Assembly: GCA_009914755.4 (NCBI GenBank)
Contig: CP086569.2
Span: 22,944,001 to 23,008,000, forward strand
Direction of reading: 5' to 3'
Source of the DNA: the human T2T-CHM13v2.0 reference genome, Homo sapiens
DNA length: 64,000 nucleotides
The notes below the pieces were generated by a model. It did not search any database. It was not told the origin of the DNA and saw only the letters and a list, made by a program, of their open reading frames with translations. A program made the position numbers and the translations under genes. Positions 1 through 61,227 of this stretch are shown piece after piece; position 1 is the stretch's first letter, and every line of letters starts with the position of its first letter.

Positions 1-978
1 GATCAGTCAGCCTGCCTAACCAAGGAAAATGGTACAGGCAGAATCTGCCTGGTATCAGGAAAAAAGCAGCCTGTGAAAAACCATTGCTGGACCCAAAAAG
101 CCTCCATCTCAGGGCCCCTTTGTCTGTCTCTGTGGTTGGGTCTCACTGGAGGAGAAGGCGTTTTGAGACTGTGAGGTGGTTTCTGGAAACTACTCTTCTT
201 ACTCCATTCCCAAAAGAGGATGTGTGCCAGAATTGGGTCCCATGGAAATCGTTTTATAGTCTGGTGTGCTGTTGAGGGGTTTTTGGGTGATAGAATCTGA
301 CTTCGTTGAGGGATTTTTGGGTAAAAGAATCATACTTGAGACCCCAGAGGCAGTTGTCAGCAAAAGATGGCCGGGCACTTGACCTGTTCTTACACATCAG
401 ACAGGCCTCTCACTGCTGCAGATGACGTTGAGACAGTGTCTCAAATGCCATCTGTAGCGATGACAAGTCCGAATAGTATGTGCAGTAGTGCTGTTGAGGG
501 GCACTGTGGATTCCCCATGAAAGCAAAGAAAAATCTAGGCTCAAATGAGAGAACAAGCTGCCTTGTGCTGGAGTACAAGCAATGTTCAGTGATTCCTGTC
601 TGAGGACCCAAAATCCTCCTGCAAATTGCAAACAACCTCAGCCTTGCCAACGAGACAACAACCACAATGCGGAACCCATCCAGCCTACATGAATTCCCTT
701 TCACTCTCTAAAATCCCTGGCAGCTAATTCAACTGTAGTGAGAGGGATTCCCATCCAGGAAGAGCCCACTGAAAGAGCGCCTCCACAATGAGAAGGCCAT
801 GCAGATGAAATAAAACAAGCTAGATTATCAGGCAAAATCTAGACATGTTTGCCTGCTTCTCATCCTTCAGAAATCATGCAGCTTTCTGATACAAGTGGGA
901 GAACAGGAGTTTCTGTTTTGGTGGCTATAACACAAATTTACAGTTTTAAAAATATTAAAGCTGTGCAATCATTAAAAT
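1..978 (+). repeat. Array unit U0 (5'-truncated by window edge; internal ~150-bp deletion near 395)
   Basis: The window begins inside the unit at the 'gtcagcctgcctaaccaaggaaaatggtacagg' landmark. The unit ends at the next 'gtgacagtgtttagaaag' at 979. Confidence 0.8.
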
Positions 979-3900
979 GTGACAGTGTTTAGAAAGAACC
1001 ACTCACGCAATGGATTCTAATGAGGGTCGTTCTTCATGAGCTGGGAAATGTTTACTGTGGAATTTGTTAAGCCAGACCCAGGAAACCCTAGGCTGACAAG
1101 GGACATGGAAGTCAGGAAAAGAAGAGGCAAATGTGGAGACCACATCCCACCCAACATCAGAACATTCCACTCCCTTTTGGCTCCGTGTAGGAAAGGCCTC
1201 AAATCAAGAGCTTGCCAGCATGGTCCCAATTGGCACTCCCAATACTCCTTGCACATTGCAGAACTTCCACCTGAACATTGGGCCATGGTGTGGATTGCTT
1301 GTGCAATTAATGAAACGTGAGCATGGGGTTAGAAGCACCTCCTGTGTCATTTGTCTTCATTTTTATTGCAGGTGAAGTTGTGGGATCCCTTCCACTTCTC
1401 ATCAAATCATATCCTCACTCCAATCTCACCTTATTCCTTCTTATACTCAGTGTCCCAGGATGAAAACCCAAGATGATGGAGAAGTGCCCCTTCATAACAC
1501 AAAACACCTGCATAGCTGGAAACTGAATTCATGGTCAACTCAAGGGGACCTGCAGACAGGACTGCTAGTTCCTCTCCCTGGGTTGGATGCAGGACAATGA
1601 AACGGTAGCAGGTGTCCATTTTTTGGGTGTGGTGTGCTCTTCTTCTTTCTAGCAGAGTGGATTTTTATTTTTATTTTATGTTTATTAATTAATTTATTTA
1701 TTTATTTTTGCAGGGGGAGGGATTTGGACACCAGCAGGTCTCAGCCTGCCTCCCAATTCACTGTGGATTCATGATAACCAGAAAATTCAAAAACATGGAG
1801 CCCCACAGGCCAAGCAGAGCACACATAAAGGTCAAACAAAAGGTTTGGAGGCACAAAAAAAGAAGCGTTGTATTGCAGGATCTGGCCAGAAGCCCACAAT
1901 GCAATGGAGTTCTCTCTTTGTTCCTAGGTGGATTGGCAGGTTGAGAAATAATAGACACACACAAGATAGTGAAAGCTGGGTCCAGGGGGGTCACCGCTTT
2001 CTGGTCCTGTGGTGCCAACAATGCACTGGATATACCAGCATTTATTATTAAGTGTAGTGAGGGCAGGTGTAGGTTAGTGAGGGATTTAGGGTCATTTCAT
2101 TATAAGGTGAGATGGTCACATGGGGATGAAGTAATTCTTTAACATAGCATTTGTATGTACAAGTACAGTACATTTTTTATGTAGAAGTACAGTATACAGA
2201 GAGATAAGAATTTACAATATAGTGTGTGCATCAGTAATTTCTAACAGAGCCTTAGAACAGAAACACAGTCTTTCCATAACCTATGATTAGCAAGATATTA
2301 ATCAGCAGTAACAATTGCAACAAAGCTGGTTACAAACAATCCATGGAAACAAGATGTGAAGCTAGACAACCAGTTAGACCAGAAATTCTCAGAAAGGAGT
2401 ATGCCTTAACCCTAAAGAGGCCTAGAAGAGCCGTGGCAAGATGAGGGCATTTATAGCCTTATCTTATCCATATGGACAGGCGCCCCCCATGTGTCCATTT
2501 ATAGGCTCTCTATGAGGATTGCATTCCATTCCCAGAGCTACGGACATCTGCTTTTCTGGGACAGGAGTCTTGGTGATGTGAAACCTGACTGCATGTCCAT
2601 TCATAGGGTCTCTGCAGGGGGAAGCACATCACGTGCTGTTGGCTCATTCTGGCAGTCCAATCTGGCATTGTCTTTACACAATCCTGCATGCAACTTTGTA
2701 TTTACAATAATCAGGTCATTTCATCTTTTATTCTGTAGTAATAGTTTCATGGGGTCTCCCTACAGTGGTGAAGTGTGGTAGCCACATTTCTTTAAGAAGC
2801 CTGCACTTACAAGAGCACACACACACACAAAATCACGATGTGACACACACGTAGACTTCCAACACTCCCAACATTCCCACAGAAACACACAGTCTGGCAG
2901 CTCCTGAGGCTGTGTGGTTCTGCAGGAAGCCACATCTGGCATAGAGCAAGCCTGGGGAACACAGGCGGGCTGTAACTAGAAATCACAGTGGGGCAAGTTT
3001 CAAGAAGACTCACTCACACCTACAAGGTCTAGGCAGCCCTAAGGTATCCTGCAGATCCCTTTGGATTCCTAAACATTTTGTGGTTTATTCCTGGGGCTGT
3101 GCTTATGTTTCCTGACTCTGGCTCTCATCTGAAATCTCCTAGGATCATGGGACTATCCTGCGGATTCCACAGAGAAGACAGGCAACAGTCCACCATTGAC
3201 GAACCTCTACAAAGGTCTCCTTCTCTGCCAAGAGGAAGGTACTTGTCTCTAGGCAATGGTGACATTCTTTGTGATGCTAGCTAGAGCTCACAATCTGGCC
3301 TGGAGACTAGTGTATGTGCATTTGTGAAGTAGGCTCAGGCACCCAGCTCTCAGAACTGTCAGCCTTCCTAAGCAGAGAAAAATGGTAGAGGCAGAGCTGG
3401 CCTACCATCAGGAAAAATGTTGCTTGTCAAAAACCACTTCAGGACTCCAAAACTCTCAGCCTCAGGGCCCCTTCAGGCATCTTCTGTGGTCAGGTCCTGC
3501 TGGAGGAGGAGGTGTTTCAAAACTGTGAGGTTGTCACTGGAAACTGCTCTTCCAGCTTCATTCCCATAGAAGGCTGTGTGCCAGAATCGAATACCATGGG
3601 GAATGGAATCTAGTCCAGTGTGTTGTTGAGGGTTGTTTGGGTGATAGAATCATACTTAAACCCCAGAGGCAGCTATCAATGAAAGATGGCCGGATTCTTG
3701 ACCTCACTGTCTCCCTTCATCCTGGGTCTTTTAATAGTTCTTTGGGAAATGAAGGAACCATAACAAAGCCAAGTCCAATGTGGAGCAGTACTTTGGGCTG
3801 GCCTCTCATGGATGCAGATAAAATTGAGACCGTGTCTCAGAGGTTGCCTGTGGTGATGGCAAGCCTGACAAAACTGTCCAGTGGTGCTATTGAGGGAAAC

Positions 3901-4375
3901 TATGGATTCAAAATGAAAGCAAATGAAAATCAATACTGGCCTGAGAGAATGGGCTGCCTTGTGCTGGAGCCCAAGAAATGTTCAATATTTCCTGTCAGAG
4001 GACCCAAAACCCTGCTGCAAAGTGCAAACAACCTCAGTCACCACAATGAGATAACGACCCAAACCTGCAGCGCAGCCAGCCTGCCCAAAGACCTTTTTGC
4101 TTTATGAAATCCCTGGCAGCTAAATAATTTGTGATGAGAGGCAGCCCAATACAGCAGCAGCCCAATAAAAAAACACTTCCACAATGAGAAGGTGGTGCAG
4201 ATGAGACGAAACAAAGGCTAGATTACCAGACAAAAGCCAGACATGGCTGCCTGATTTTCATTCTTCAGAAATCATGCAGCCCTCCAATGGAAGAGGGAGA
4301 ACAAGAGTTTTCTTGTTGGTGGCTGTAATGAGAATTTATAGTTTTAAAAGTGTCTAAGATTCCCAGTCATTAAAA
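979..4375 (+). repeat. Array unit U1 (3.4 kb; enlarged by ~0.94-kb insertion at 1838-2775)
   Basis: Unit landmarks appear in the normal order. Between 'caaaaaaagaagcg' and 'gtagccacatttctttaag' there is about 940 bp of unrelated sequence found in no other unit. Confidence 0.85.
1838..2775. mobile_element. Unit-specific ~0.94-kb insertion, possibly a solo LTR or other interspersed element (begins 'tgtattgcagg', ends 'tccctaca')
   Basis: It is present only in U1. It begins TG and ends CA, and the flanks 'gaagcg' and 'gaagtg' could be an imperfect target-site duplication. I cannot assign a family from sequence alone. Confidence 0.35.
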
Positions 4376-6808
4376 TGTGACTGTGAGAAGGAAACACTCC
4401 TGCAATGGATTCCCATGAGGGTTGCTCTCTTTGAACTGGGTAATGTTTAGTGTGGAAATTCTTGAGCCAGTCATAGAAAATGCTAGGCCAATGATGAACA
4501 TGGAAGTCAGGAAAAGAAGAGGCAAATCTAGGGGCCACATCACACAGAGCACCAATGCATTCCGCTCCCATTTGGCTCTGGATATGAAAGCCCTCATATA
4601 AGGAGTTTGTCAGAATGGCCCTAATTTACATACCAAAAGTTCCTGGTAGGTTGGAGTACTTGCACCAGAAACCAGGTCATGGTGTGGACAGCTGGTGCAA
4701 TTAAGGGAATGCGGGGATGGTGTTGGAAGCACCTTCTGTGTCATCTGTCTTCCTTTTTATTTTTGCAGGTTAAGTTGTGGGACTCCATCCACCCCTCAGC
4801 AGGTTTTATACTCACCGCATCTGACCTTATTTCTGCTCACATTCTATGTCACAGGATAAAATCCCAAGACAATGGAAGTGGACCCCTTCATGACATGAAG
4901 CACGTGATCGAATTCAAGGTAAATTCAAGGTGCCCTGCAGACAGGACTGCTAGTGTCTCCCCCTTGGTTGGCCACAGGATGATAAAACACTGGGATATGT
5001 TCGTTTTTTGTGTGTGTGGTGTGCTCCTCATCTTTCTAGAGAGGGCCTTTTTTTTCAGGGGGAGGTAATTTGGATGCTGGGGGGTCTCAGGCCACCTCCC
5101 AATTCACTAAGGATTCATGATCAACAGAAAAATAAAGAACATGGAGCCCTGCAGCTCCAGCAGAGCCACATAGACAGGCCAAGAAAAGATAGGAATCTAA
5201 AAAACAAAAAAAAAAAAGAAGCACTGAAGTGTGTTAGCCCCATTCCTTTAAGGTGGCTCCACTTATGGGCACACACACACACAAACACACACAGACACAC
5301 ACACCCACACATCCAACATTTGCAACACTCCCACAGAAACACACAGCCTGGCAGCTCTAGAGGCTGCATGGTTCTTCATGAAGCCCTACCTGGGAGACTG
5401 CAATCCTGGGGAAAAAATGGGGGCTGTACTAGTTATCACAGTGGGGCAGTTTCTAGGAGACTCATTTCTACAACAATTTCATGGACCTGATAAATCCTGC
5501 AAATGCTTTTGGATCTTTGGGGATTTCACAGTTTATTCCTTGGGCTGTGCTTGAAGTTTTTCAGACTGGCTCATGCCTGTCCTCTCTTAGGATCTTGGGA
5601 CTATCCCATGGATCCCACAGTGAAGACAGGCAAGAGTACACCACTGATGCACCTTCACAGAGGCCTCTTTCTCAGCCAAGCAGCAGGGACTTGTCACTAG
5701 GCAACGATGACATTTAATGTGACACTAGCCAAAGCTCACAATCAGGCCTGGTGCCCTGAGACAAGTGTATGCATATTTGTGAGGTCAGTTTGGGAACTCT
5801 TCTGTCAGAGCTGTCAGCCTGCCTTAGCAGAAAAAGGGTACAGGCAGAGCCAGTTTGGTATCATGAAAAAGGCTGCTTGAGAAAATCCACTCTGGGACAT
5901 TAAGAGTCTCAACCTCAGGGCCCCTTTTGGCCATCCCCATTTTCAGGTTTCTCTGGAGGGGGAGGTGTTTCAAGACTGTGAGTTAGTTCTGTAAACTGCC
6001 CTTCTGAATCCATTTTCAAAAGAGGTTGTGTGCAAGAATCAGCTCACATGGGGATTGGAATATTGTGTGGCGTGTTGTTGAGAACTCAGATGCAGGTGTC
6101 AGTGAAAGATGGCTGTTTTCTTGACCTCACGGCCTCCCTTCATCCTGGTCTTTGCAGGGGCTCTCTGTGAAAGGCAGGAACCACGACAAAGGCAAGTCCA
6201 AAGTAAAGCAGTGTTCTGACACCTGGGACTGGCCTCTCACGGGTGCAGATGACGTTGAGACAGAGTCTCAGAGGCTGTTTCTGGTTATGGCAAATCTGAA
6301 AAGGGTGTCCAGTACTATTGTTGAGGAGCACTGTGGATTCCGCATGAAAGCAAAGAAAAATCAACTCTCACCTGAAAGAATGAGCTGCCTTGTGCTGGAG
6401 TCCAAGCAGTGTTCAATGACTCATTTCAGAGGACCCAAAAGCCTCCGACAAAGTGCAAACAACCTCAACACCCACAGCAAGACAACGACACATAACCTGG
6501 ATCTCAGCCAACCCACCTGAAGTCCCTTTGGCTCTCAGAAATCTCTGGCAGCTAAATAATCTGTGGCAAGAAGCCATTCCATCCAGCAACAGCCCAATGA
6601 ATTAGCCCCTCCATAATGGGACAGCCATGCAGAAGAAATAAAACAGAAGCTAGATTACCAGGCAAAAGCCAGAAATGGCTGCCTGCTTCTCATCCTACAG
6701 GAATCCTGTAGCCCTCGATAGAAGTGGGAGAACAAGAGTTTCCTTACTGTTGGCAGTAATGGGCATTTATGTTTTTAAAAGTATCAAATCTCCCCAGTAT
6801 TTAAAACA
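4376..6808 (+). repeat. Array unit U2 (2.43 kb)
   Basis: Full set of unit landmarks. The exon-like block is at 4769-4918. Confidence 0.85.
4769..4918 (+). ncRNA. Example of unit-embedded exon-like segment: (Y)n-AG acceptor at 4768, alternative internal acceptor at 4854, consensus donor AAG|GTAAAT at 4918; no ORF in any frame
   Basis: The splice signals are 'tttttgcag|gttaagttg...' and '...gaattcaag|gtaaattcaagg'. The same signal-flanked block sits at the same unit position in almost every unit. All six frames contain stops. Confidence 0.35.
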
Positions 6809-9282
6809 TGATAGTGTATAGAAGGAAACATTCACGCAATGGATTCTTATGGGGCTTGTTCTTAGTTAACTGGGAAATGTTTAGTATGGAAGTCATTGAG
6901 CCAGACCCAGGAAACCATATGCCAATGAGAAACATGAAAGTCATGAAAAGAAGAGGCAAGTCTGGAGGCCACATCCCACCCAGCATCAATCCATTCCATT
7001 CCCATTTGACTCCAGGTAAGAAAGCCCTCAAATCAGGAGTTTTCCAGGATGGCCCAAATTTGCACTCCAAATAGTTCTTTTGCTTTGGAATACTCCCACC
7101 TGAATACTGGGCCATGGTGAGGACTGCTTGTGCAATTAAAGTGACGGAAATGGAATTGAAAGCTCCTTTTGTGTCGCCTGTATTCATAGTTTTTTGCAGA
7201 TGGAGTTGCAGAACCCCATCCAAACCTTACCAGATTGTGTCCTCACCCGTATCTGACTTTATTGCTGTCACACTCTCTGTTCCAGCATGAAATCTCAAGT
7301 TGATGGAGGAGTGCACCCACAGGACATGAAGCACCTTCTTGGCTGGAAACTGAATTCTGGGTAAATTCAAGAGGTTATGGGGACCAGAGTGCTACTGTCT
7401 CTGGGTTGGCTGCATTATAGTGAAACATTGGGAGCTATCTGTTCTTGGGTGTGATGCTCTCCTCTTCTTTCTAGAGGAGTGCCTTTTTTTTTCAGGGGCA
7501 GATAATGGGGAACCCAGCTTGTCACAGACTGCTTAACTAGTCATTGCTGATTCATGATCCACAGAAAAATAAAGAACAGGGAGCACCACAGTCCAAGCAG
7601 AGACACACAGACAGGCCACCAAAAGGTTGGGAGAATAAAAAATAAAAAAGCACTGCAGTGTGTTAGTTACATTCCTTTAAGCCGAATTCACTTACATGCA
7701 CACACACAGACACACACACATAAACACATAAAGCCACACACACATGCAGACATCCAACACTTGCAATACTCCCGCAGTAACACACAGCCCAGTAGCTTCT
7801 GAGGCTGCTTCATTCTGCAGGAAGCCCCTCCTGGGAGAGAGAAAGCTTGGAAAACAAAGGAAGGCTAAACTTAGAAATTACAGTGGGACACATTTCAATA
7901 AGACAAACTGCTACAATGTCTAGGCAGGCCTGAAGAATTCTGCAGATCCTTTTGGATCTGTACGGATTTTGTGCTTTATTCCTGGGGCTCTGCTTGACAT
8001 TTCTTCAGGCAGGCTCACATCTGCCCTCTCCTAGGATCATGGGACTAGCCCATGGATCCCACGGAGAAGACAGGTGAGAGTCTACTGCCGATGCACCTCC
8101 ACAGAGATCTCCTTCTCCATCAAGCCAAAGAGAATTGTCACTAGGCAAAGGTGGCATTCATTGTAATGCTAGCCAGAGCTCGCAGCTCAGGCCCATTGCC
8201 CTAAGACTAGCACATCCACATTAGTGACTCAAATTAGAGCACCAGGGTGTCAGGGCTGTCAGCCTGCCTAAGCAGAGGAAAATGGTACACACAGAGTTGG
8301 CCTGGTATCAGGAAAAAGGCTGCCTGTGATAACCCATTGCAGGATCCTAAAAGTCTCAACCTTAGGGCCCTTATACGCTGTCTCCATGGTCAGGTCACAC
8401 TGGAGGCAGAGCCATTTCAAGACTGTGAGGTTGTCACTGGAAACTACTCTTCTGACTCCATTCCTGAAAGAGGCTTTGTGCAAGAATCCTGTCCCATGGG
8501 GATTGGAATATATTACGGTGAGATGTTGAGGGTTCTTTGGGTGATGGGCTCTTACTTGAAATACCAGAAAAAAGTTGTCAGTGAAAGATGGCCTGGCCTT
8601 GACCTCACTGCATTCCTTCATTCTGGGTTGCTCAGGTGCTATCTGGGAAAAGCAGGAACCATGACAAAGGCACGTCCAAATTGAAGCAATGTTCTCAGAC
8701 CTCGAACTGGTCTCTCACAGGTGCAGATGAGGTTCAGACAGTGTCTCAGAGGCCACCTGTGGAGATTGCAATCCTGAAAAGTGTATCCAGTAGTGTGGTT
8801 GAGGGGCAATGTGAATCCCCCATGAAAGCCAAGAAACATCAAGCATCACCTGAAAGAAAGAGCTGACTTGTGCTGGGGTCCAAGCAACATTTCCATATTC
8901 CTGTCACAGAAAGAAGAAGCCTCTTTCAAAATGCAAACAACCTCAGCTCCCACAAGATAATGATTGAAAACCCAACGTGCAGCCAGTCTACTCTACAACG
9001 ATTTTTCTTCCTGAAATTCCTGGCAACGAAAATATCTGTGGCAAGAGGCAGTCCCATCCAGCAACAGGCCAATGAAAGAGCCCATCCACAAAGAGAAGGA
9101 TGAGCAGATGAAATGAAGCAGAGGCTATATTACCAGGCTAAATCTAGACACGGCTGCCTGCTTCTCATCATACAGGAATCATTCAGCCCTCTGATAACAG
9201 AGGGAAAAGAAGAGTTTCCTTGTTGGTGGCTGTAATGGGAATTTACCGTTTAAAGGTATCAAAGCTGCCCAGTCATTAAAAT
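6809..9282 (+). repeat. Array unit U3 (2.47 kb)
   Basis: Full set of unit landmarks. Confidence 0.85.
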
Positions 9283-11691
9283 GTGAAAGTGTTTAGAAGA
9301 AAACACTCACTCAATGGATTTCCATGAAGGTTGTTCTCCATGAACTAGGAAACATTTAGTGTAACAGTTGTTGAGGCAAACCCAGGAAACCACAGGTCAA
9401 TGAGGAACATGCAAGTCAGGAAAAGAAGAGGCAAGTTTGGAAGCCACATCCCACCCAACATCAATTCATTCCAGTCGCATTTGGCTCTCAGATTGAAATC
9501 CTTCAAATCAGAAGTTTGCCAGGATGTCCCCAATTTGCACTCAAAATGTTCCTTGCACGTTGCTGTGCTCCAATCTGAAGCTGAGTTATGGTGTGGACTA
9601 CTTCCGCAATTAAGGGAATGAGGGGATGGAGTTGGAATCACCTTCTGTGTCATCTGTCTTCATTTTTTTTTTCAGATGAAGTTCTGGGGCTCCCTCCACC
9701 CATCACCAGATTGTATCCTCACTCCTATCTGACCTTATTCCTGCTCATACTGTATGTCCTGGGATGAATGCCCAGATGATGGAGGAGTGCCCTCTCATGA
9801 CCTGAAGAACCTGCTCAGCAGTGAAACTGAATTCGTGGTATGCCCGTTTTTTGGTGTGGTGTGCTCCTCTTCATTCTAGAAGGGTGGCTTTTTTTTTTTT
9901 TTTTTTGCAGTGGCAGGTGACTTGGACACTGGCAGGTCTCAGCCCACCTCTCAGTTCACTGCGGATTCATGATCCACAGAAAAATAAATAACATGGAGCC
10001 CCACAGCCCAAGCAGAGCCACACAGACAGGCCACCAAAAGTTTGCAAGACTCAAAAAAAACCAAGCGCTGAAGTGTAGTAGCCACATTCTTTAAGCAAAC
10101 TCCACTTACAAACACACACACACACACACAAAACAATGTCACACACCCATGCCAACATCCAACTCTCACAACACTCTTTCAGAAACACAGTTTGTCAGCT
10201 CCTGTGGTTTTGTGGTTCTGCAAGAAGCTAACCTGGGATAGGCAACCCCAGGGAATACAGGTGGGCTGTTCCTAGAAATCACAGTGCTGCAACTTTCAAA
10301 AAGACTCACACCTACAAAGTCTAGGCAGGCCTAAGTTATCCTTCAGATTTTTTTGGATCCTTAGGGATTTTGAGGTTTATTCCTCGTGCTGTGGTTGACG
10401 TTTCTTCAGGACGGCTCTCATTTGCCCTCTCATAGGCTCATGGGACTATCCTGTGGATTCCACAGAGAAGACAGATGAGAGTTCACCAACCACGCAGCTC
10501 CATGTATGTCTTTTTCTCTGCCAAGATGAAGGGACTTGTCACTAGCCAGCAATGACAATCATTGGGATGCTCACTAAAGCTCAGTAACAGTCTTGGTGCC
10601 CTGAGACTTGTGCATGCACATTCATGAGGCAGGCAGGCTTGGGCACCTGGCTGTCAGACCTGTCAGCCTACCAAAGCAGAGGAAAATAATACAGGCAGAG
10701 CTGGCCGGTATTGAGAAAAATGCTGCCTGTGAAAACCCACTGCAGGACCCTAAAACTCTCAATCTAAAGACCCTTTCTGGCCATCTCTCTGGTCAGGTCC
10801 TACTGGAGGAGGAGGTGTTTCCAGACTGTGAGGTGGTCACTGGAAACCTTCTGAATCCATTCCCAAAAGAGGCTGTGTGCCAGAAATGGGTCCCATGGTG
10901 ATTGGAATATTGTCTGGTGTGTTGTTGAGGGTTCTTTAAGTGATAGATTCATACCTGAGACCCCAGTGGTGGATGTGAGCAAAAGATAGCCTGGCACTTG
11001 ACCTCATTGCCTCCCTTTATTTTGGGCCTTTCAGGGGCCCTCTTTGAAAAGCAGGAACCACGGCAAGGCAAGTCAAAGGTAAAGCAGTGTTCTCACACCT
11101 CATACTGGCCTCTCAGGGGTGCTGATGAGATTCAGATGGTGTCTCAGAGGATATATGTGGTGATGGCAACTCTGAAGAAGGGTGTCCAGTAGTGCTGTTG
11201 AGGGGCACTGTTGAATCCCCATGAAAGCAAAAAAAAAAAAAAAATTCACTGCTCACCTGAGAGAACAAGCTTCCCTGTGCTGGAGTCCAAGTAATGTTCA
11301 ATAATTCCTGTCAGAGGACCCAAAATCCTCCTGGAAAATGTAAACAACCTCAGCTCCCACAATGAGAAAAGCACCACAAGCTAGAGTGCAGCCAGCCTAC
11401 CCAAAGTCCCTTTTGCTCTCTCAAATCCCTGGCAGCCAAAAGATGTGTGGTGAGGGGCAGTTCCATTCAGCAACAGCCCAGTGAAAGAGACCCTCCCCAA
11501 TTAGAAGGCCATGCAGACAAGGTGAAACAGAGGCTAGATTACAAGGTCAAAGCAGACATGGCTGTCTTCTTCTCACTTTTCGGGAATCATTCAGCCCTCT
11601 GATAGAAATGGGTGAACAACAGTTTCCTTATGATGGCTGTAATGAGAATTTATGGTTTTAAAAAATTCAAAGCTGCACAGTCATTGACACA
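9283..11691 (+). repeat. Array unit U4 (2.41 kb)
   Basis: Full set of unit landmarks. It has a small deletion after the exon-like block, near 9840. Confidence 0.85.
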
Positions 11692-12595
11692 TGACAGTGT
11701 TTAGAAAGAGGCAGTAAGACAGTGAATTTTCATAAGGCCCATTCTCTGTGAATTCTGAAATGTTTAGTGTGGAAGTCGTTGAGTCAGACCCTAGGCTCAG
11801 CCTAGGAAATCCTAGGCTGATGAGGAACATGGAAGTCAGAAAAGAAGAGGCCAGTGTGGAGGCCACATCCCACACAGCATCAACCCATTCCACTCCCATT
11901 TGCCTCTGGGTGTAAAAGGCCTCAAATCCAGGGTTTACCAAGATGGCTTCAATTTGCAGTCCAAATGTTTTTTGCACATTAGAGTACTCCCACCTGAACA
12001 CTGGGCCAAGGTATGGACAGCTTGTGTAATTAAGGAAATGCAGGGATGGAGTTTAAAGAAGGATCTTTGTCATTTGTATTTATTTTTTTTTTGCAGATGA
12101 ATTTGCAGAGCCCCATCCACTCCTCACCAGATTGTATCCTCACCCATATCTGAATTTCTCCCTGCTCATATTCTATGTCCCAGGATGATATCCCAAGACA
12201 AAGGAGGAGTGCCCCATCATGACATGAAGAACCGCTCAGCTGGGAGCCAAATTCGATGTAAATTCAGGGGTTTCTGCAGAGGACTGCTAGTGTTTCTTTC
12301 TGGGTGGGACACAGGACAATGAAACACTGGGAGATGTCTGTTTTTTGGTGTGGTGTGCTTCTCTTCTTTACAGAAGTGTGGTTTTCTTTGCAGGGGCAGG
12401 TGATTTGGACATTGGCAGGTCTCTGCCCACCTCTCAATTTGCTGCAGACTCATGATCCACACAAAAATAAATAACACAAAGCCTCACAACTGAAGCAGAG
12501 CCACACAGACAGGCCAACAAATGATTGGGAGACTCAAAAAAGATGAAGCCCTGGAGTGTGTTTGCCACATTCCTTTAAGCAGAAGTGACTTACAG

Positions 12596-12630
<35 letters not shown>

Positions 12631-14172
12631 ACCACACACACAGGCAGACATCCAACACTTGCAAGAATCCTGAAGAAACACACTGCTTGTTAGCTTCTGA
12701 CGCTGCATGGTTTTGCTAGATCCCCTTTTGGGAGACAGCAACCCAGGGGAACATGCAGGCTGTAACTAGAAATCACAATGGAACAAGTTTGAAAAAGACT
12801 CACCCCTACAACATCTAGGCAGGCCTGAGGAATCCTGCAGATCTTTTGGATCCTTAGGGATTTTGCAATTTATTCCTGGGCCTCTGTTTGATGTTTCTTT
12901 TGGCTGGCTCACATCTACTCTCTCGTAGGATCATGGGACTATCTCTTGGATCCCACAGAGAAGACAGGCAAGAGTCCACAGCCGACATACCTACAGGGAG
13001 GTCTCCTTCCTCAAGAGGCAGGAACTTGTCTCTAGGCAATGATGACATTCATTGTGATGCTAGCCAGAGCTCACAATGAGGACTGGTGTCCTGAGACTAG
13101 TGCATATGCATTCCTGAGGCAGGTACAGGCACCTAGCTGTCAGAGCTATCAGTCTGCCTAAGAAGAGAAAAATTGTGCAGGTAAAGTCAGTCTGGTCTTG
13201 GGAAAAAGGTTTCCCATGAGAAACCACTGTCAGACCCCAAGGTCTCGACCTCAGGGCCCCTTCTGGCCATCTCCATGGTCGAGTCTTGCTGGAGGAGGAG
13301 GCATTTTGAGACTCTGAGGTGGCGACTAGAAACTGCTCTTCCTACTCCATTCCGAAAGGATGCTTTTTGCAAGAATCCCATCCCATGAGAATCAGAATTT
13401 GGTCTGGTGTGTTGTTGAGGGTTCTTTGGGTGACAGAATTATACCTGAGATCCCAGAGATGGGTGTCAGTGAAAGATGGCTGGGCTCTTTACCTCACTGT
13501 CTCTCTCCACCCTGGGCCTTGCTGGGGCCCTCCACAAAAGGCAGGAACCATGACAAAGGGAATTCCAAAGAGGGCCAGTGTTCTCACCTCGATCTGGTCT
13601 CTCATGGGTGCAGATGAGGTTCAGACAATATCTCAGATGCCCTCTGTGGTGATGGCAAGCCTGAAACTGGTGAACAGTAGTGCAGTTGAGGGGCACTGTG
13701 GATTCCCTATGAAAGCAAAGAAACATCAAAGCTCACTTCAGAAAATGACTTGCCTTGAGCTTGCATCCAAGCAATGTTCAATGATTCCAGTCAGAGTATC
13801 CAAAAACCTTCTGCAGACTGCAAACAACTTTAGCACTCACAATGACACCACAAACTACAACCTGGATGAAGTCAGCCTACCCAAAGTCCCTTTTCATCCT
13901 TGAAATCCCTGACAGCCAATTGGTCTGTGGTGAGAGGCAACCCCATCCAGCAACAGCCCAATGAAAGACCTCATTCGCATTGAGAAAGGACTGGCAGATG
14001 CAATGAAACAGGGGCTAGATTACCAGGCAAAAGCCCAACACAGCTGCCTGCTTTTCATGCTAGAGGAATCATGCAGCCCTCTGATAAAAGTGGGAGAACA
14101 AGAGTTTCTTTATTGGTGGCTGTAACGAAAACTTACAGTGTTAAAATTATCACATCTTTCCAGTCTTTAAAA
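11692..14172 (+). repeat. Array unit U5 (2.48 kb)
   Basis: Full set of unit landmarks. Confidence 0.85.
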
Positions 14173-15910
14173 TGTGACAGTGTTTAGAAGAAAACACTCA
14201 TGCATTGGATTCCCATGAAGGTCATCCCCCATGAACTGTGAATTGCTTAGTGTGGAAGATGTGGAGCCAGACCCAGGAAGCCCTAGGCCGATGAGGAACA
14301 TGGAAGTCAGGAAAAGAAGAGACAAGTGTGCAGGGCACATCCCACCCAGCATCAACACATCCCACTCTCATTTGGCTCAGGGTATGAGAGCTCTCAAATC
14401 GGGAGCTTGTTAGAACCGCCCCAGCTTGCACTCCAAATGTTCCCTCAACATTGTATTACTCCCACCTCAACACCAGGACATAATATGAACTGCCTGTGTA
14501 ATTAAGGGAATGTGGGCATGCAGTTGGAAGTACCTTCTGTGTCATCTGTCTTCACCGTTTTTGCAGGAGAATGTGCTGAACTCTATTTACCCCTCACCAG
14601 ATTGTATCCTCACCCCTATTTTACCTTGTTACTTCTCACACTCTCTGTCCCAGAATGAAATCACAAGATGATGGAGGAGTGCCATATGAGGACATGAAGC
14701 ACCTACTCAGCTGAGAACAGAATTCAAAGTAAATTCAAAGGTCCCTTCACATAGGACTGCTAGTTTCTCACACTGGGTTGGCTGCAGAACAATGAAACAC
14801 AGAATGAAACACATTGTTTTGGGGTGTGATGTGCTCCTCTTCTTTCTAGAAGAATGGCTTTTTTTGCAGGGGGAGGTAACTTGAACCTATGCCTCTCTCA
14901 GACAGTCTCCTAATTCACTGCAAATTCATAGTCCACAGAAAAATAAGGGACACAGAGCCCTGCAACTCAAGCAGAGCCACACCAACAGGCCACCAAAAGG
15001 TGTGGAGTTTCAAAAAAAGGAAGCGATGCAGTGTGTTATCCACATTCCATTAAGCAGACTCCACTTAGCCACACACTAACACATAAACACACACACACAA
15101 AGCCACACAAACACGGAGATATCTAACACTTGCAACACTTCCACAGAAGAACACAGCATGGCAGGTTCTGAGTTTGCGTGGTCCTGCAGGAAGCCTTAAT
15201 TGAAAGACAGGAACTTTGGGGAACACAGGTGGGCTGTAGTTAGAAATCAAAGTGGGGTAGGTTTCAAAAGACTCACTGCTACAACATCTAGGCATGCCTG
15301 AGACATCCCGCAGATCTTTTAGATCCTTATGAATTTTGTGGTTTATTCCTGAAGCTCTGCTTGATGTTTCTTCAGGCTTGTTCATATCTGCCTTCTTCTA
15401 GGATCATGGAACTATCTTGAGGATCCACAACTCCACAGAGGTCCCCTTCTCTGCCAAGATGTGTAGACTTAGGCCACTGTGGCATTCATTGTGATGCTAG
15501 CCAGAGCTCAAAACTAAGGCCTCGTGCCCTGAGACTAGCAAACGTGCATTTGTGTGGATGGCTCATGTACTGGCTGTCAGCCTTCCTAGGCAGAGGAAGA
15601 TGGTACAAGTAGAGCCGCCTTCATACTGAGAAAAAGTTTGCCTGGGGTAATATCCTGTGGTACTCTAAATGTCTCGACCTTAGGGCTACTTCTTATCGTC
15701 TCCGTGGTTGGGTTCCGCTGGAGTATGAGGCATTTCAAGACTGTGAAGTGGTGGGTGGAAACTGTTCTTCTGACTTCATTTCCGGAATAGGCTGTGTGCA
15801 AGAATCTGGTCCCAAGGGGATAGGAATGTAGTACCGTGACTTTCCTTGTTGGCAGCGGTAGTGGTAATTTATGATTTTAAAAGTATCAAAGCTGCCCAGT
15901 CATTTAAACA
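14173..15910 (+). repeat. Array unit U6 (1.74 kb; ~0.72-kb internal deletion at ~15838)
   Basis: The sequence jumps from 'gggataggaatgtagtaccgtgac' straight to the unit tail 'tttccttgttggcagcggtagtgg'. Confidence 0.8.
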
Positions 15911-18393
15911 TAACAGTGCTTAGAAAGAAACACTCACTCAATGGATTCCCATGAGGGTCGTTCTCCGTGCAGGGGGAAACCTTTAGCGTGCAAGTGATTA
16001 AGCCAGACTCAGGAAACCATAGGCTGACAAGGAACATGGAAGTCAGGGAAAGAAGAGGCAAACATGAAGGCCACATCCCCATTCAGCATCAGTCCTTTCC
16101 AGTCCCATTTGGCTCCAGGTATGAAAAACCCCAAATCTGGAGTTTGTCAGAATGGCCCCAATTTGCACTCCAACTTTTCCTGGCACGTTGCAGGACTCCA
16201 CTTGAACACCAGGCCATTGCGTGGACTGCTTGTGCAATTAAAAGAATGTGGGGATGGAGTGGGAAACCACTTCTGTGTCATCTGCCTTCATTTTTTTTTT
16301 TTTTTTTTTGGCAGGTGAAGTTGCAGGACACCATTTACTCTTCACCAAATTGTATCTTCACTCCTATCTGACTTGTTCACAATCTATTTCACAGAAGGAA
16401 ATCCCAAAATGATGGAGGAGTGTTTCCTCATGACGTGAAGCACCTGCTGGGCTGGGAACCGAATTCAAGGTACATTCAAGGGGACCTGCAGACAGGACTG
16501 CTATTGTCTCTCTGTGGGTTGGCCACAGGAAAATAAAACACTGAGAGATGCCTCTTTTTTGGTGTGGTGTGCCCCTTTTCTTTCTAAAGGAGTCAATTTT
16601 CTTGCAGGGTGAGGTGACTTGGATGCCCACATGTATCAGCTCACCTTCAAATTCACTGCGGATTAATAGTCCACAGAAATATAAAGAACATGGACCTCTG
16701 GAGCCCAAGCAGACCCACACAGAGAGGCCACCAAAAGTTTCTGAGACTCAAAAAAAAAAAAGTGCTGAAATTCGTTAGCCACATTCCTTTAAGGAGATTC
16801 CACTTACAGGCACACACATAAAAACGCGCGTGCACACACACACACACACACACTCTAAGCCACAAACACGTGAAGACATCCAACACTTGCAAAACACTTC
16901 CACAGAAACACAGCCTGGCTGCTTCTGAGGCTGCCTGGTTCTGCAGGAAGCTCCACCTGGAGGAATAAACCTAGGGAAAACAGCTCGGCTGTACCTAGAA
17001 ATCACAGTGGGGTAAGTTTCAAAAAGATTCATCCTACAACCTCTAGGCAAGCCTGCGGCATTGTGCAGATCTTTTTGTATGTGTAGGGATTTCTCAGTCT
17101 ATTTCTAGGACTCTCCTTGACATTTCTTCAGGCTGGCTCACTGTACCATCTCTTAGGATCATGGGACTGTTCCTTGGATCCCACAAAGAAAACAAGGGAA
17201 AGTCCAACACCAAAGCACCTCCATGGAGGTCTCCTTTTCTGTGAAGCTGCAGGAGTTGTCACTAGGCAAAGGTGGCATTCATTGTGACTCTAGCCAGAGA
17301 CCACAGCTCAGGCCTTGTGCCCTGAGACAAGCACATGGATATTCATGAAGCCAACTCTGGCATCTGGATGTCAGAGCTGTCAGACTGCCTAAGCAGAGGA
17401 AAATGGTACAGGCAGAGAATGTTTGGGAGCAGGAAAAAGGCAGCCTGCAATAAGCTAAGGCGGGACCCTAAAAGTCTCCACCTGAGAACATCTTCAGGAC
17501 ACCTCTGTGGCTGGGTCACACAGTAAGGTGAGGTGTTTCGAGATGCTGAGGTGGTTACTGAAAAATTCTCTTCTGACTCCATTTATGAAAGAGGTTGTGT
17601 GCAAGAATCAAGTCCCCTGGGGATTGGAATATAGGCTAGTGTGTTGTTGAGGGATCTTTAGTTAATGGAATCATAGCTGAGACACCAGAGGTGGTTGTCA
17701 GTGAAAGATGACTGGGTCCTTAACCTCACTGTCTCCCTCCACACTGGGCCTCACTGCCACTCTCTGGGAAAGCCAGGAACACCAACAAAGGAAAGTCCAA
17801 AGTGGAGCTCCATTCTCACACCTCCAAAAGGCCTATCATGCATGCAGATGATGTTGAGACAATGTCTCACATGCCCTCTGTGGTGATTGCCAGCCTGGAA
17901 AAAGTATCCAGTAGTGCTTTTGAGGGACACAGTGGACCACACATGAAAGGAGTGAAAAATGAAGGCTCTCCTGAGAGAATGAGCTGATTTGTGCTGGAGG
18001 CCTAGCAACGTTCCAAGATTTCCATCAGAGGACCCAAAATCCTCCTGCAAAATTCAAACAACCTCAGCCCCCAGATGGAGACCATGACCCACCACCTGGA
18101 GCACAGCAATCCTATTCAAAGTCTCTTTTGGTCCCTGAAATCCCTGGCAGCCAAAAGATCTGTGGCAAGAGGCAGTCCTGTCCAGCAACACCCTCCATGA
18201 TGAGAAAGGACGTGCAACTGAAATGAAACAGAGTCTAGTTTACCAGTTAAAAGCCAGGCACGATGGCCTGCTTCTCATCCTACAGGAATCATGCAGCCCT
18301 CTGATATAAGTGGGAGAAAAACAGTTTCCTTGTCAGTGGCTGTAATGGGAATTTATCATGTTAAAGGTATCACAGCTGCCCACTCATTAAAAT
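15911..18393 (+). repeat. Array unit U7 (2.48 kb)
   Basis: Full set of unit landmarks. It has a (T)19 tract ahead of the acceptor at 16296-16314. Confidence 0.85.
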
Positions 18394-23286: not shown

Positions 23287-23568
23287 GTGACAGTGTTTAG
23301 AAGAAAACACTAAACAATGGATTCCCATGATGATCATTCTCCACAAACTGGGAAACCTTTAGTATTTGTGCTCCTTTTCTGTCTAGAAGAGTGGCATTTT
23401 TTTTTTTTTTTTGCAGGCGGATGTTATTTGGATGCCAGCACATGTTGGCATGCCTCCCAGTCCACTGCAGGCTCATGATTCACAGAAAAATAAAGAACAC
23501 AGAGCGATGCAGCCCAAGGTAAGCCACATAGACAGGCCATCAACGGGTTGGGAGACAAGAAAGAAGGA

Positions 23569-23644
<76 letters not shown>

Positions 23645-28703: not shown

Positions 28704-28734
<31 letters not shown>

Positions 28735-36118: not shown

Positions 36119-36163
<45 letters not shown>

Positions 36164-41020: not shown

Positions 41021-41539
41021 ACCCAGCATCAATCGATTCCACTTTCATTTGGCTACAGCAATGAAAGCCCTCAAATCAGGAGTTTGCCAGGATGGCCCCA
41101 ATTTGCACTCCCAATCTTCCTTGCATGTTGGAGGACTCCCACTTGAACAGCGGGCCTTGGTGTGGACTGCGTGTGCAATTAAGGAATGTGGGGATGGAGT
41201 TGGAAGCATCTTCTGTGTCATCCGTCCTCTTCTTCTTTTTTTTTTTTTTTTTGCAAGTGAAGTTGCAGGACCCCATCCGCCCCTCTCCAGATTGTATCCT
41301 CACTCCATCTGACCTTATTGATTCTCACACTATATGTCCTACAATGAAATCCCAAGATGATGGAGCAGTGCCCCCTCATGACATGAAGCACCTGCTAGGC
41401 TGGGAACCAAATTTGAGGTAAATTCAAAAGGCCTGCAGATGAGACTGCTAGTGTGCTCCCTGGGTTTCCCACAGGACAATGAATCTCTGGGAGACATCTG
41501 TTTTTTGGGTGTGGTGTGCTCATCTTCTTTCTAAAAGGG

Positions 41540-41579
<40 letters not shown>

Positions 41580-46181: not shown

Positions 46182-46213
<32 letters not shown>

Positions 46214-57167: not shown

Positions 57168-57364
<197 letters not shown>

Positions 57365-61141: not shown

Positions 61142-61227
61142 CTAAATTGAAAAAAAAAAAGTCTTTTCAATTTCAGAATGAACAATTTAAGAAATCCATT
61201 TGATAAATCCAGATAACATGTTAGTAC

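What the first reader, a model, noticed from the sequence alone, without database searches (positions are those of the whole stretch)
4769..4918. Every repeat unit carries a consensus-spliced, ORF-less mini-exon, suggesting the array is an exon array for a repetitive lncRNA
At the same unit position, almost every copy has a long polypyrimidine tract + AG (e.g. 'tttttttgcag|gtgaagttg'). A second internal (Y)n-AG follows ('ctctatgtcccag|gatgaaatcc'), then a consensus donor 'caag|gtaaat' 150-160 nt (or 64-75 nt) later. Examples are 4769-4918, 7198-7370, 9674-9838, 12095-12250, 16313-16470, 28264-28424, 30712-30875 and 43775-43937. The acceptor and donor signals are retained in nearly every unit, while the exon body diverges and has stops in all six frames. 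That pattern is what selection for splicing of a non-coding transcript would leave, with each unit contributing one exon. It matches reports of Y-linked testis transcripts built from tandem repeat exons.
Basis: seen in the sequence. Interest (0 to 1): 0.68.

Follow-up and report, generated by a model that had tools for sequence, protein, structure and literature searches.

The report
Known Y-linked TTY2/NORF repeat array
The repeated splice-like signals are real, but they sit in the already described human Y-chromosome TTY2/NORF 2.45-kb tandem array next to RBMY1 and decay about as fast as the DNA around them, so this is a rediscovery of a known non-coding testis transcript family and not evidence of a selected exon array.

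Summary
Window 1-51,070 is a head-to-tail array of about 21 units of ~2.45 kb, only 72-77% identical to each other. The 3' exons of RBMY1 lie at 60,343-63,476 (minus strand). So this is the known TTY2-like/NORF array of the human Y.

The motif pair exists: 22 copies of a T-run+CAG acceptor and an AAG|GTAAAT-type donor ~161 nt apart. It is the best positionally conserved acceptor-donor pair in the unit. "Almost every copy" is overstated:
- The acceptor AG is kept in 18/22 copies, which is ordinary (31% of consensus AGs do as well).
- The pair beats at least 95% of shuffles in only 6 units.
- The "exon body" is conserved exactly at the unit mean (0.834), so signals and body do not contrast.
- Only the donor GT stands out (21/21). 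About 0.6 invariant GTs per unit are expected by chance.

I found no coding signal, shared RNA structure, Rfam family, CTCF motif or transcription-type strand asymmetry. No RNA data were reachable. Verdict: already known; the selection claim is not supported.

The parts
1..51070 (+). Tandem array of ~21 units of ~2.45 kb (TTY2-like / NORF array, Yq11). It runs off the 5' end of the window and ends inside a unit at ~51,067.
   Evidence: blastn self-comparison. Unit HMM hits tile 2..51,053. Acceptor-to-acceptor spacing of full units is 2376-2519 nt. All-vs-all unit identity is 72-77% with no young pairs.
28236..28411 (.). Published STS 'TTY2L2A' (Yq11). The amplicon straddles the proposed acceptor at 28,264 and ends inside the proposed exon.
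   Evidence: Primers from PMC6690235 Table 2 match exactly and uniquely at 28236-28257 (+) and 28390-28411 (-).
1372..1533 (+). Candidate exon copy 1: strong acceptor, weak donor (ATG|gtcaac).
   Evidence: PWM acceptor 13.9, donor 1.2 bits; 38/40 shuffles do as well.
4769..4918 (+).
   Evidence: PWM 17.3 / 8.3 bits; best pair in its unit on both strands; 0/40 shuffles reach it.
7200..7360 (+). Candidate exon copy 3: moderate acceptor, weak donor.
   Evidence: PWM 10.2 / 5.0; 35/40 shuffles as good.
9676..9837 (+). Candidate exon copy 4: strong acceptor, donor gtatgc, followed by a ~75-nt deletion of the downstream unit sequence; internal AG lost.
   Evidence: PWM 16.6 / 5.6; 2/40 shuffles.
12097..12257 (+). 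Candidate exon copy 5: strong acceptor, weak donor (GAT|gtaaat).
   Evidence: PWM 17.2 / 4.3; 7/40 shuffles.
14567..14728 (+). Candidate exon copy 6: moderate sites.
   Evidence: PWM 11.9 / 4.8; 24/40 shuffles.
16315..16469 (+). Candidate exon copy 7: very long T-run acceptor, donor gtacat.
   Evidence: PWM 19.2 / 5.2; 0/40 shuffles.
18749..18920 (+). Candidate exon copy 8: 10-nt insertion in the body, donor gttaat.
   Evidence: PWM 15.5 / 3.8; 5/40 shuffles.
21227..21387 (+). Candidate exon copy 9: the AG is shifted by 1 nt relative to the other copies.
   Evidence: Alignment; donor 6.5 bits.
25811..25971 (+). Candidate exon copy 10: strong pair (ttttcag| ... CAAG|gtaaat).
   Evidence: PWM 16.9 / 8.3; 0/40 shuffles.
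28264..28424 (+). Candidate exon copy 11, in the TTY2L2A unit.
   Evidence: PWM 11.0 / 7.7; 11/40 shuffles; STS match.
30713..30874 (+). Candidate exon copy 12: the only near-ideal donor (AAG|gtgagt).
   Evidence: PWM 12.9 / 12.1; 0/40 shuffles.
33157..33317 (+). Candidate exon copy 13; frame 1 open.
   Evidence: PWM 13.3 / 7.7; 4/40 shuffles.
35615..35775 (+). Copy 14: acceptor AG lost (gcaa) and internal AG lost; donor intact.
38112..38263 (+). Copy 15: 10-nt deletion in the body; weak donor (GAA|gtaaat); internal AG lost.
   Evidence: PWM 13.2 / 4.2; 22/40 shuffles.
40216..40377 (+). Copy 16, in a rearranged partial unit: weak donor gtagat.
   Evidence: PWM 11.8 / 3.5; 34/40 shuffles.
41257..41417 (+). 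Copy 17: acceptor AG lost (gcaa) and internal AG lost; frame 1 open.
43776..43936 (+).
46219..46380 (+). Copy 19: acceptor AG lost (gcat); weak donor.
47754..47913 (+). Copy 20: acceptor preceded by an expanded T/G-rich tract; frame 1 open.
   Evidence: PWM 12.3 / 7.7; 8/40 shuffles.
50130..50291 (+).
   Evidence: PWM 13.3 / 8.3; 1/40 shuffles; exact string at 50204.
50907..51066 (+). Copy 22: last, truncated copy. The array ends at the exon's 3' end and there is no donor.
1877..2763 (.). The only large non-unit insertion in the array (887 bp, TG...CA termini, solo-LTR-like).
   Evidence: Not covered by the unit HMM; sequence read. The LTR reading is inferred from the termini only.
60343..63476 (-). 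3' part of an RBMY1 gene (SRGY-box exons and last coding exon), convergent with the + strand of the array.
   Evidence: tblastn with RBMY1A1 sequence recalled from memory gives 100% over the last 99 aa. A database hit is named 'RNA-binding motif protein, Y chromosome, family 1 member B-like'.

Best explanation
The window holds the distal end of the Yq11 TTY2-like ('NORF', no long ORF) array of the human Y chromosome. This is an old tandem amplification of a 2.45-kb non-coding unit, lying 9 kb downstream of, and convergent with, an RBMY1 gene.

The single ancestral unit already carried a T-run+CAG and, 161 nt further on, AAG|GTAAAT. Every copy inherited that pair by descent. Since then the copies have diverged independently (star-like, ~25% pairwise). 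The splice-like signals have decayed at about the same rate as everything else in the unit.

Where both signals are still strong (roughly half of the units), read-through transcription of the array in testis can plausibly define a ~161-nt cassette exon, or a ~75-nt one from the internal AG, separated by ~2.3-kb introns. This would give the repetitive, ORF-less TTTY2-type transcripts that are already described. Units with a lost AG or a weak donor would be skipped.

Shown here: the identity of the array, the anatomy and strength of the sites, and the lack of differential conservation, coding signal or RNA structure. Inferred: actual splicing at these sites, and the absence of any sequence-specific function of the RNA.
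For: Identity:
- TTY2L2A STS primers match exactly and uniquely.
- The TTY2L12A (Yp11) forward primer maps by homology to unit position 2414-2428, so both published loci are copies of this unit.
- RBMY1 3' exons lie alongside.
- An exact array ORF is found only in human-derived contigs.
- The period is 2.38-2.52 kb, against the 2.48-kb NORF unit of Skaletsky et al. 2003 (from memory).
- PMC1420679 describes human NORF arrays/TTTY units as testis transcripts without coding evidence.

Descent plus neutral decay:
- Unit identities are star-like, 72-77%.
- The conservation profile is flat. Exon body 0.834 equals the unit mean of 0.834. The acceptor window is in the top 10% and the donor 9-mer in the top 35%.
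- Acceptor AG is kept in 18/22 copies, which is ordinary.

Plausible exon:
- It is the best positionally conserved acceptor-donor pair of the unit on either strand.
- It is the top pair in its own unit in about 10 units, and beyond >=95% of shuffles in 6.
- The donor GT is kept in 21/21 copies.

Non-coding and no other known role:
- No Pfam family.
- ORF lengths are within shuffle expectation.
- No codon periodicity after correcting for base mutability.
- No homologues outside the Y copies.
- No consensus RNA structure.
- No Rfam family.
- No CTCF consensus.
Against: - No RNA evidence of any kind could be obtained, so use of these sites as exons is untested.
- The published TTY2L2A amplicon begins 28 nt upstream of the acceptor. 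The TTY2L12A STS lies in the proposed intron. If these were designed on cDNA, the transcripts are not limited to this exon.
- Consensus-to-copy substitutions show no A>G vs T>C asymmetry (379 vs 306, rate ratio 1.00). This argues against sustained germline transcription of the whole unit on one strand.
- The invariant donor GT (1 of 125 consensus GTs; G invariance 2.6%, T 18.5%) and the invariant C and A of the acceptor CAG are more than a purely neutral model predicts for a pre-specified site. Some constraint cannot be excluded.
- The near absence of transposon insertions in 51 kb of an old array is not explained by neutral decay.
Confidence: 0.65

Rival explanations
1. One reading: the array is maintained by selection as an exon array. 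Each unit contributes one spliced mini-exon to a functional repetitive testis lncRNA, and selection acts on the splice signals but not on the exon body.
For: - The donor GT is retained in 21/21 copies, the only invariant GT among 125 in the unit.
- The C and A of the acceptor CAG are invariant.
- The pair is the best conserved acceptor-donor pair of the unit.
- Exon length is held near 161/162 nt in most copies.
- The array is almost free of transposon insertions, as constrained transcription units can be.
Against: - The acceptor AG is lost in 4/22 copies, and its retention is ordinary (31% of AGs do as well).
- The donor 9-mer (top 35%) and the exon body (50th percentile) are not distinguishable from the rest of the unit.
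- About 0.6 invariant GTs are expected by chance, and the site was chosen post hoc.
- Only 6/22 pairs beat >=95% of shuffles.
- No substitution strand asymmetry.
- No shared RNA structure.
Confidence: 0.12
2. The sites are not used at all. The motif pair is a chance feature of the ancestral unit (a mononucleotide T-run next to CAG, and a GTAAAT), copied 22 times by amplification. TTY2-like RNAs, where they exist, are unspliced or spliced elsewhere.
For: - Conservation is flat, and the copies explain the recurrence by descent.
- The T-run varies from ~8 to ~30 nt, like a microsatellite.
- The TTY2L2A amplicon crosses the acceptor, and the TTY2L12A STS lies in the proposed intron.
- No strand asymmetry.
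- A second T-run+GCAG lies 300 nt downstream at consensus ~1484-1499. It also has an invariant CA but no usable donor partner.
Against: - Strong 3' splice-site-like tracts paired with a GT at exon-like distance tend to be used when transcribed (general knowledge of exon definition).
- In about 10 units it is the best pair on either strand.
- The donor GT is invariant.
- Annotated TTTY lncRNAs of the NORF arrays are multi-exonic (from memory, not checked here).
Confidence: 0.2
3. The mini-exon is the relic of a protein-coding exon of an ancestral gene with an internally repeated ~54-aa (or 25-aa) module, in the way DAZ exon 7 sits in a 2.4-kb unit. It is now pseudogenised.
For: - The all-copy consensus exon (161 nt) is open in frame 1 for 53 codons, and frame 1 is still open in 5 of 22 copies.
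- The consensus ORF extends to 170 codons.
- The unit size equals that of the DAZ repeat.
Against: - The 170-codon ORF runs straight through the acceptor into the 'intron', so it does not respect the exon.
- ORF lengths are within shuffle expectation (P=0.14 for the longest).
- No codon-position bias once base mutability is taken into account (23-94% of windows are as periodic).
- No Pfam hit.
- The only homologues among 5.8 billion proteins are other copies of the same human Y repeat.
- No similarity to DAZ repeats.
Confidence: 0.03

Closest known systems
TTY2 / TTTY2-like multicopy family, i.e. the 'NORF' arrays of the human Y (Makrinou et al. 2001, Genome Res 11:935; Skaletsky et al. 2003). 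Neither paper is held in the library; details are from memory, PMC6690235 and PMC1420679.
   Same: - Y-linked at Yq11 beside RBMY1.
- Tandem unit of ~2.45-2.48 kb.
- No long ORF.
- The TTY2L2A STS lies in the window at 28,236-28,411.
- The TTY2L12A primer is homologous to the same unit.
- Described as testis (and kidney) transcripts.
   Different: Nothing found that differs; this is a member.
DAZ 2.4-kb repeat units, each carrying the 72-bp exon 7 (AZFc, human Y)
   Same: Y-linked, ~2.4-kb tandem unit with one short exon per unit, expressed in testis. This is the clearest precedent for 'one exon per repeat unit'.
   Different: - DAZ exons are coding (24-aa DAZ repeat) and the units are highly similar to each other.
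- Here the units are ~25% diverged and non-coding, with no similarity to DAZ repeats (tblastn E>0.8).
Tandem snoRNA host-gene arrays (SNORD116/SNORD115 in SNHG14; SNORD113/114 in MEG8)
   Same: Kilobase-scale tandem units, each giving one non-coding host-gene exon, with diverged units.
   Different: Those units exist to deliver an intronic C/D snoRNA. No Rfam family is found here at gathering threshold in the whole window, or at E<=1 in three units apart from one chance-level miRNA match.
Repeat-built lncRNA loci and CTCF-bound macrosatellites (FIRRE with its 156-nt RRD repeat, DXZ4)
   Same: A repeated ~150-160-nt element spread over a locus that gives a non-coding RNA; sex-chromosome location.
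   Different: - FIRRE RRD copies are ~96% identical within a species (from memory). Here the copies are ~78% identical.
- No CTCF consensus motif anywhere in the window.
- No shared RNA structure.

Membership tests
TTY2-like / NORF array of the human Y | Contains a published locus-specific marker of the family (TTY2L2A STS, Yq11) | tested here: met
   Both primers match exactly and uniquely, 176 bp apart, at 28,236-28,411.
TTY2-like / NORF array of the human Y | Tandem repeat unit of about 2.48 kb | tested here: met
   Spacing of full units is 2376-2519 nt; the consensus/HMM is 2437-2442 columns. The 2.48-kb figure is from memory of Skaletsky et al. 2003.
TTY2-like / NORF array of the human Y | Human Y-chromosomal location (Yq11, AZFb/c neighbourhood) | tested here: met
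   RBMY1 3' exons at 60,343-63,476. Array ORFs are found only on a 64.6-Mb NCBI contig and in human-contaminated metagenome contigs.
TTY2-like / NORF array of the human Y | No long open reading frame / no protein-coding evidence | tested here: met
   No Pfam hit. ORF lengths are within shuffle expectation. No codon periodicity. No homologues outside the repeat itself.
TTY2-like / NORF array of the human Y | Transcribed in testis | not testable with these tools
   No RNA data could be reached. Literature statement only (PMC1420679).
Functional (selected) spliced exon | AG acceptor and GT donor present in the copies | tested here: inconclusive
   AG 18/22, GT 21/22 (21/21 of untruncated copies). 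Most copies have both, four have lost the AG, and one is truncated.
Functional (selected) spliced exon | Splice-site strength above shuffled controls | tested here: inconclusive
   A home-made PWM was used, not MaxEntScan. 6/22 pairs beat >=95% of shuffles, about 10 are the best pair of their unit, and 5-6 are no better than shuffles.
Functional (selected) spliced exon | Signals conserved above the neighbouring sequence | tested here: not met
   Acceptor window top 10%; donor 9-mer top 35%; AG retention ordinary; exon body equals the unit mean. Only the GT dinucleotide is exceptional (1/125), with ~0.6 expected by chance.
Functional (selected) spliced exon | Splice junctions seen in RNA | not testable with these tools
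   All related sequences retrievable read through the acceptor, i.e. they are genomic.
DAZ 2.4-kb exon-7 repeat | Unit encodes the 24-aa DAZ repeat | tested here: not met
   tblastn with three DAZ repeats (sequence from memory) gives a best E of 0.84.
snoRNA host-gene exon array | A snoRNA in the intron of each unit | tested here: not met
   No Rfam family at gathering score in 64 kb. Nothing credible at E<=1 in 24,600-32,000.
CTCF-bound macrosatellite (DXZ4/FIRRE type) | CTCF motif in each unit | tested here: not met
   CCASYAGRKGGCRSY with <=1 mismatch gives 0 matches in the window. This is a crude consensus test only.

The most novel reading that the evidence does not exclude
The array is not merely decaying. 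The invariant donor GT, the invariant C and A of the acceptor CAG, the tightly kept ~161-nt exon and ~2.45-kb unit lengths, and the near-absence of transposon insertions in 51 kb of an old array together reflect constraint on a regularly spliced, repeat-built testis lncRNA. Its exon sequence would be free to drift: function through the act of splicing or transcription, or through exon number, and not through sequence.
Probability: 0.1. Interest if true: 0.45.

Novelty: already known. Interest (0 to 1): 0.15.

Why it matters
If the mini-exons were under selection, the Y-linked NORF/TTY2 arrays (~0.6 Mb of the male-specific Y, from memory of Skaletsky et al. 2003) would move from presumed transcriptional noise to a constrained repeat-built lncRNA. 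That would be relevant to reports linking TTY2L2A/TTY2L12A deletions to azoospermia (PMC6690235). As it stands, the sequence shows an old, non-coding array decaying neutrally, which fits the prevailing view. The practical value is negative. Recurrence of splice-like motifs across copies of a tandem repeat is explained by common descent and must be tested against the conservation of the rest of the unit. In addition, ORFs from this human repeat circulate as 'proteins' in metagenome-derived collections.

Tried and rejected
- **DAZ 2.4-kb repeats.** First idea, from the unit size and Y context. Rejected: no DAZ-repeat coding similarity, and the units are far more diverged.
- **snoRNA host-gene arrays (SNORD116/115/113/114 type).** Rejected: no Rfam hits.
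- **FIRRE/DXZ4-like CTCF arrays.** Rejected: no CTCF consensus.
- **Non-primate origin.** Considered because exact-ish Alu and B1 probes found nothing. Dropped after the RBMY1 exons, old Alus in the spacer and the STS match.
- **Coding relic.**
  - The raw phase counts looked periodic (p=0.004-0.009). This vanished after correcting for base-specific mutability and comparing with all windows.
  - ORF richness of the + strand is within shuffles.
- **Higher-order repeat structure.** None; all units are equally distant.
- **Spliced transcripts via the protein collection.** Every hit, including Logan-derived contigs, reads through the acceptor. One (P0045) shows a ~390-bp genomic sub-duplication, not a junction.
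- **Cross-species orthologues.** Only one chromosome-scale NCBI contig (64.6 Mb), apparently human, carries the family. No ape sequences were retrievable.
- **Literature.** Makrinou 2001 and Skaletsky 2003 are not held. Warburton 2008 lists the RBMY and DAZ arrays but not this diverged one.
Full report
**1. What is in the window**

A self-comparison shows that positions 1 to about 51,070 are a head-to-tail tandem array with a period of about 2.45 kb, all on one strand. Its units are only 72-80% identical to each other. Tandem Repeats Finder misses it because the period exceeds its limit.

- A profile HMM built from 14 full-length units tiles the whole stretch from 2 to 51,053.
- Only two gaps are left: an 887-bp insertion at 1877-2763 with TG...CA termini, and 201 bp of simple repeat at 23,571-23,771.
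- All-against-all identities of the full units are 72-77%, with no younger pairs and no higher-order periodicity. The family tree is star-like.
- The array runs off the 5' end of the window and ends inside a unit at about 51,067.

**2. Where it comes from**

- The minus strand of 60,343-63,476 encodes the SRGY-box exons and the last coding exon of RBMY1. A tblastn with the RBMY1A1 sequence as I remember it gives 100% identity over the last 99 residues.
- A database search with the window ORF returns a protein that NCBI names 'RNA-binding motif protein, Y chromosome, family 1 member B-like'.
- A 194-aa array ORF occurs, letter for letter, in contigs of human gut metagenomes, i.e. host DNA.
- Most tellingly, the STS primers published for 'TTY2L2A', a Yq11 member of the TTY2 multicopy family (PMC6690235, Table 2), match exactly and uniquely at 28,236-28,257 (+) and 28,390-28,411 (-).
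- The forward primer of the Yp11 member TTY2L12A aligns by homology to unit position 2414-2428 in many units. Both published loci are therefore copies of this same 2.45-kb unit.

The array is thus the TTY2-like array, the 'NORF' (no long open reading frame) array of Skaletsky et al. 2003. That paper gave the unit, as I recall, as 2.48 kb. PMC1420679 summarises these arrays as the home of TTTY transcription units. It describes them as lacking protein-coding evidence and expressed largely in testis, with TTY2L2A and TTY2L12A also weakly in kidney. The two primary papers are not held in the library.

**3. The observation**

*Site presence*
- At the homologous position, 18 copies have a T-run followed by (G)CAG. 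In one of these (21,227) the AG is shifted by one base.
- Four copies have lost the AG: 35,615, 41,257 and 43,776 (gcaa) and 46,219 (gcat).
- A GT lies 150-172 nt downstream, mostly 161 or 162, in all 21 untruncated copies. The 22nd copy is cut by the end of the array.
- The internal AG, mostly 75 nt before the donor, is present in 18 of 22.
One of its examples (43,775-43,937) has no main acceptor. Its first quoted string has no exact match. The 'consensus donor' CAAG|GTAAAT is exact in five units only.

*Site strength*
- I scored sites with position weight matrices written from textbook human splice-site frequencies. This is not MaxEntScan.
- The acceptors are strong, within the top 0.0-1.7% of all AGs in the array.
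- The donors are mixed: 8.3 bits in five units, 12.1 in one, and 5 bits or less in eight.
- In an unbiased scan of both strands of the aligned units, this acceptor and this donor are the best positionally conserved sites of the unit. The minus strand has several recurrent donors but only one weak recurrent acceptor.
- Within its own unit the pair is the best acceptor-donor pair on either strand in about ten units. It exceeds at least 95% of dinucleotide shuffles in six (4769, 9676, 16315, 25811, 30713, 50130). It is no better than shuffles in five or six.

**4. Is there a signature of selection on the signals?**

*Conservation profile*
- With all copies aligned to the unit model, the fraction of copies matching the consensus is nearly flat along the unit: 0.75-0.90 per 50 nt, mean 0.834.
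- The exon body scores 0.834, the 50th percentile of same-length windows.
- The 200 nt upstream and downstream score 0.828 and 0.831.
- The acceptor window (-20..+3) scores 0.881 (top 10%). The donor 9-mer scores 0.861 (top 35%).
- So there is no contrast between retained signals and a diverging body.

*Dinucleotide retention*
- Retention of the acceptor AG (18/22) is matched or exceeded by 31% of the 202 consensus AG dinucleotides.
- The one exceptional feature is the donor GT. It is kept in 21/21 copies and is the only invariant one among 125 consensus GTs.
- Non-CpG G is the most mutable base here: only 2.6% of such Gs are invariant, against 18.5% of Ts. For a pre-specified site this is nominally p of about 0.005-0.01.
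- The C and A of the acceptor CAG are also invariant. I read this as weak, non-decisive evidence of constraint.

*Other tests*
- Substitutions from consensus to copy show no strand asymmetry. A>G versus T>C is 379 versus 306, a rate ratio of 1.00, and all six complementary pairs are symmetric. From established knowledge of transcription-associated mutational asymmetry, long-term germline transcription of one strand is expected to leave an excess of A>G over T>C on the coding strand. Its absence argues against sustained, strong germline transcription of the whole unit. It does not exclude low-level or recent transcription.
- The 22 exon copies have no consensus secondary structure at all (RNAalifold, 0 pairs).

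**5. Coding potential**

- 'Stops in all six frames' is not true of every copy. Seven of 22 have an open frame, including 4769-4918 itself.
- The all-copy consensus of the 161-nt form is open in frame 1 for 53 codons, as part of a 170-codon consensus ORF. That ORF runs straight through the acceptor into the upstream 'intron'.
- ORF lengths in the consensus are within what dinucleotide shuffles give (longest ORF P=0.14).
- The apparent three-base periodicity of substitutions (p=0.004-0.009 uncorrected) disappears once base-specific mutability is taken into account and the statistic is compared with all windows of the unit (23-94% of windows are as periodic).
- There is no Pfam match.
- A search of 5.8 billion proteins with the consensus ORF finds only other copies of this repeat, on one 64.6-Mb NCBI contig and in human-contaminated metagenome or Logan contigs.
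- All the sequences I inspected read through the acceptor, so they are genomic and not spliced. One (P0045) shows a ~390-bp genomic sub-duplication of the kind also seen in the window at 40.2-41.3 kb and 50.1-50.9 kb.
- The unit is therefore non-coding, as the NORF name says.

**6. Other known kinds considered**

- DAZ exon-7 units: same 2.4-kb size, same chromosome, one exon per unit. No coding similarity.
- snoRNA host-gene arrays: no Rfam family.
- CTCF-bound macrosatellites such as DXZ4 or the FIRRE locus: no CTCF consensus in 64 kb.

**7. Most likely mechanism**

*Shown*
- The array is the Yq11 TTY2/NORF array.
- The motif pair was present in the ancestral unit and is shared by descent.
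- It decays at about the background rate.
- Roughly half of the copies still have a pair that is strong by a simple PWM.

*Inferred*
- In testis, read-through transcription of the + strand (convergent with RBMY1) lets the spliceosome define ~161-nt cassette exons in units whose sites are intact, or ~75-nt ones from the internal AG, separated by ~2.3-kb introns.
- Units with a lost AG or weak donor are skipped.
- The product is the repetitive ORF-less TTTY2-type RNA already described, with no sequence-specific function.

I put about 0.65 on this overall picture. That breaks down as about 0.9 on the identification, about 0.75 on near-neutral decay, and about 0.5-0.6 on actual use of the sites.

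*Caveat on the published amplicons*
- The TTY2L2A amplicon begins 28 nt upstream of the acceptor, and the TTY2L12A amplicon lies in the proposed intron.
- If those were designed on cDNA, which I could not establish, then TTY2-like RNAs include sequence outside the mini-exon.
- This favours the rival that these sites are little used.

**8. Novelty and interest**

The array, its lack of ORFs and its testis transcripts have been known since 1997-2003. The idea of one exon per Y-linked 2.4-kb unit has its textbook precedent in DAZ. The new element in the finding, a selection signature on the splice signals, is not supported. Interest is low (0.15).

What remains mildly odd:
- the invariant donor GT;
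- the near-absence of transposon insertions in 51 kb of an array whose units differ by 25%. There are no Alus in the array, against at least four old ones in the 2.3 kb at 57.2-59.5 kb.

These keep a small probability (about 0.1) on a constrained, regularly spliced repeat-built lncRNA. The tests in the next-steps field would settle it directly: testis long reads on T2T-Y, and orthologous units in the ape T2T Y chromosomes.

Noticed in passing
window 60,343-63,476 (minus strand): 3' part of an RBMY1 gene: four to five SRGY-box exons with a ~545-bp period and the last coding exon (stop at 60,343-60,345). It is convergent with the + strand of the array. The gene continues beyond the window's 3' end.
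   Followed up: partly
window 1-51,070 versus 57,208-59,466: The 51-kb array holds no Alu and only one large insertion, although its units are ~25% diverged from each other. The 9-kb spacer next to it holds at least four old Alus (74-80% identical to the AluY consensus). An old array that is nearly transposon-free, yet shows no sign of recent homogenisation, is not explained by simple neutral decay.
   Followed up: partly
window 1877-2763: 887-bp insertion interrupting one unit. It begins TGCAGG and ends CCCTACA, so it looks like a solo LTR. It could not be classified without a repeat library.
   Followed up: no
window 19,056-19,790 and 23,367-23,813: Local rearrangements inside units. There is a 153-bp tandem duplication (1.8 copies, 81% match) at 19,226-19,508 in the CA-rich part of the unit. 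There is also an expanded CTTT/TTCC-type simple repeat around 23,424-23,813, where the exon-bearing part of one unit is missing.
   Followed up: no
window 14,567-16,315; 38,112-41,257; 46,219-47,754; 50,130-51,067: Partial units with exon-to-exon spacings of 1748, 2104+1041, 1535 and 777 nt: internal deletions or sub-duplications that re-use unit positions ~890-1345. A Logan-derived ORF (P0045) from another copy of the family shows the same kind of ~390-bp sub-duplication.
   Followed up: partly
unit consensus ~1484-1499 (e.g. window 5050-5068): A second T-run+GCAG lies about 300 nt downstream of the first. It also has an invariant CA across copies, but no recurrent donor at exon-like distance; the only nearby GT is 9 nt away.
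   Followed up: partly
whole array, consensus-to-copy substitutions: The substitution spectrum is strand-symmetric for all six complementary pairs (A>G vs T>C ratio 1.00). The transition:transversion ratio is only ~1.1. CpG sites have changed in ~45% of copies, non-CpG G/C in ~18%, and A/T in ~10%.
   Followed up: yes
proteins P0008-P0076; loci L001-L006: ORFs of this non-coding human Y repeat are present as 'proteins' in public metagenome-derived collections (human gut metagenome assemblies, JGI, Logan). These are host-DNA contamination called as genes.
   Followed up: partly
unit consensus 851-1360 (e.g. window 4679-5068): The all-copy consensus reconstructs a 170-codon ORF that runs through the proposed acceptor and the whole mini-exon. 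It has no family match and no codon-position bias, so it is probably chance.
   Followed up: yes
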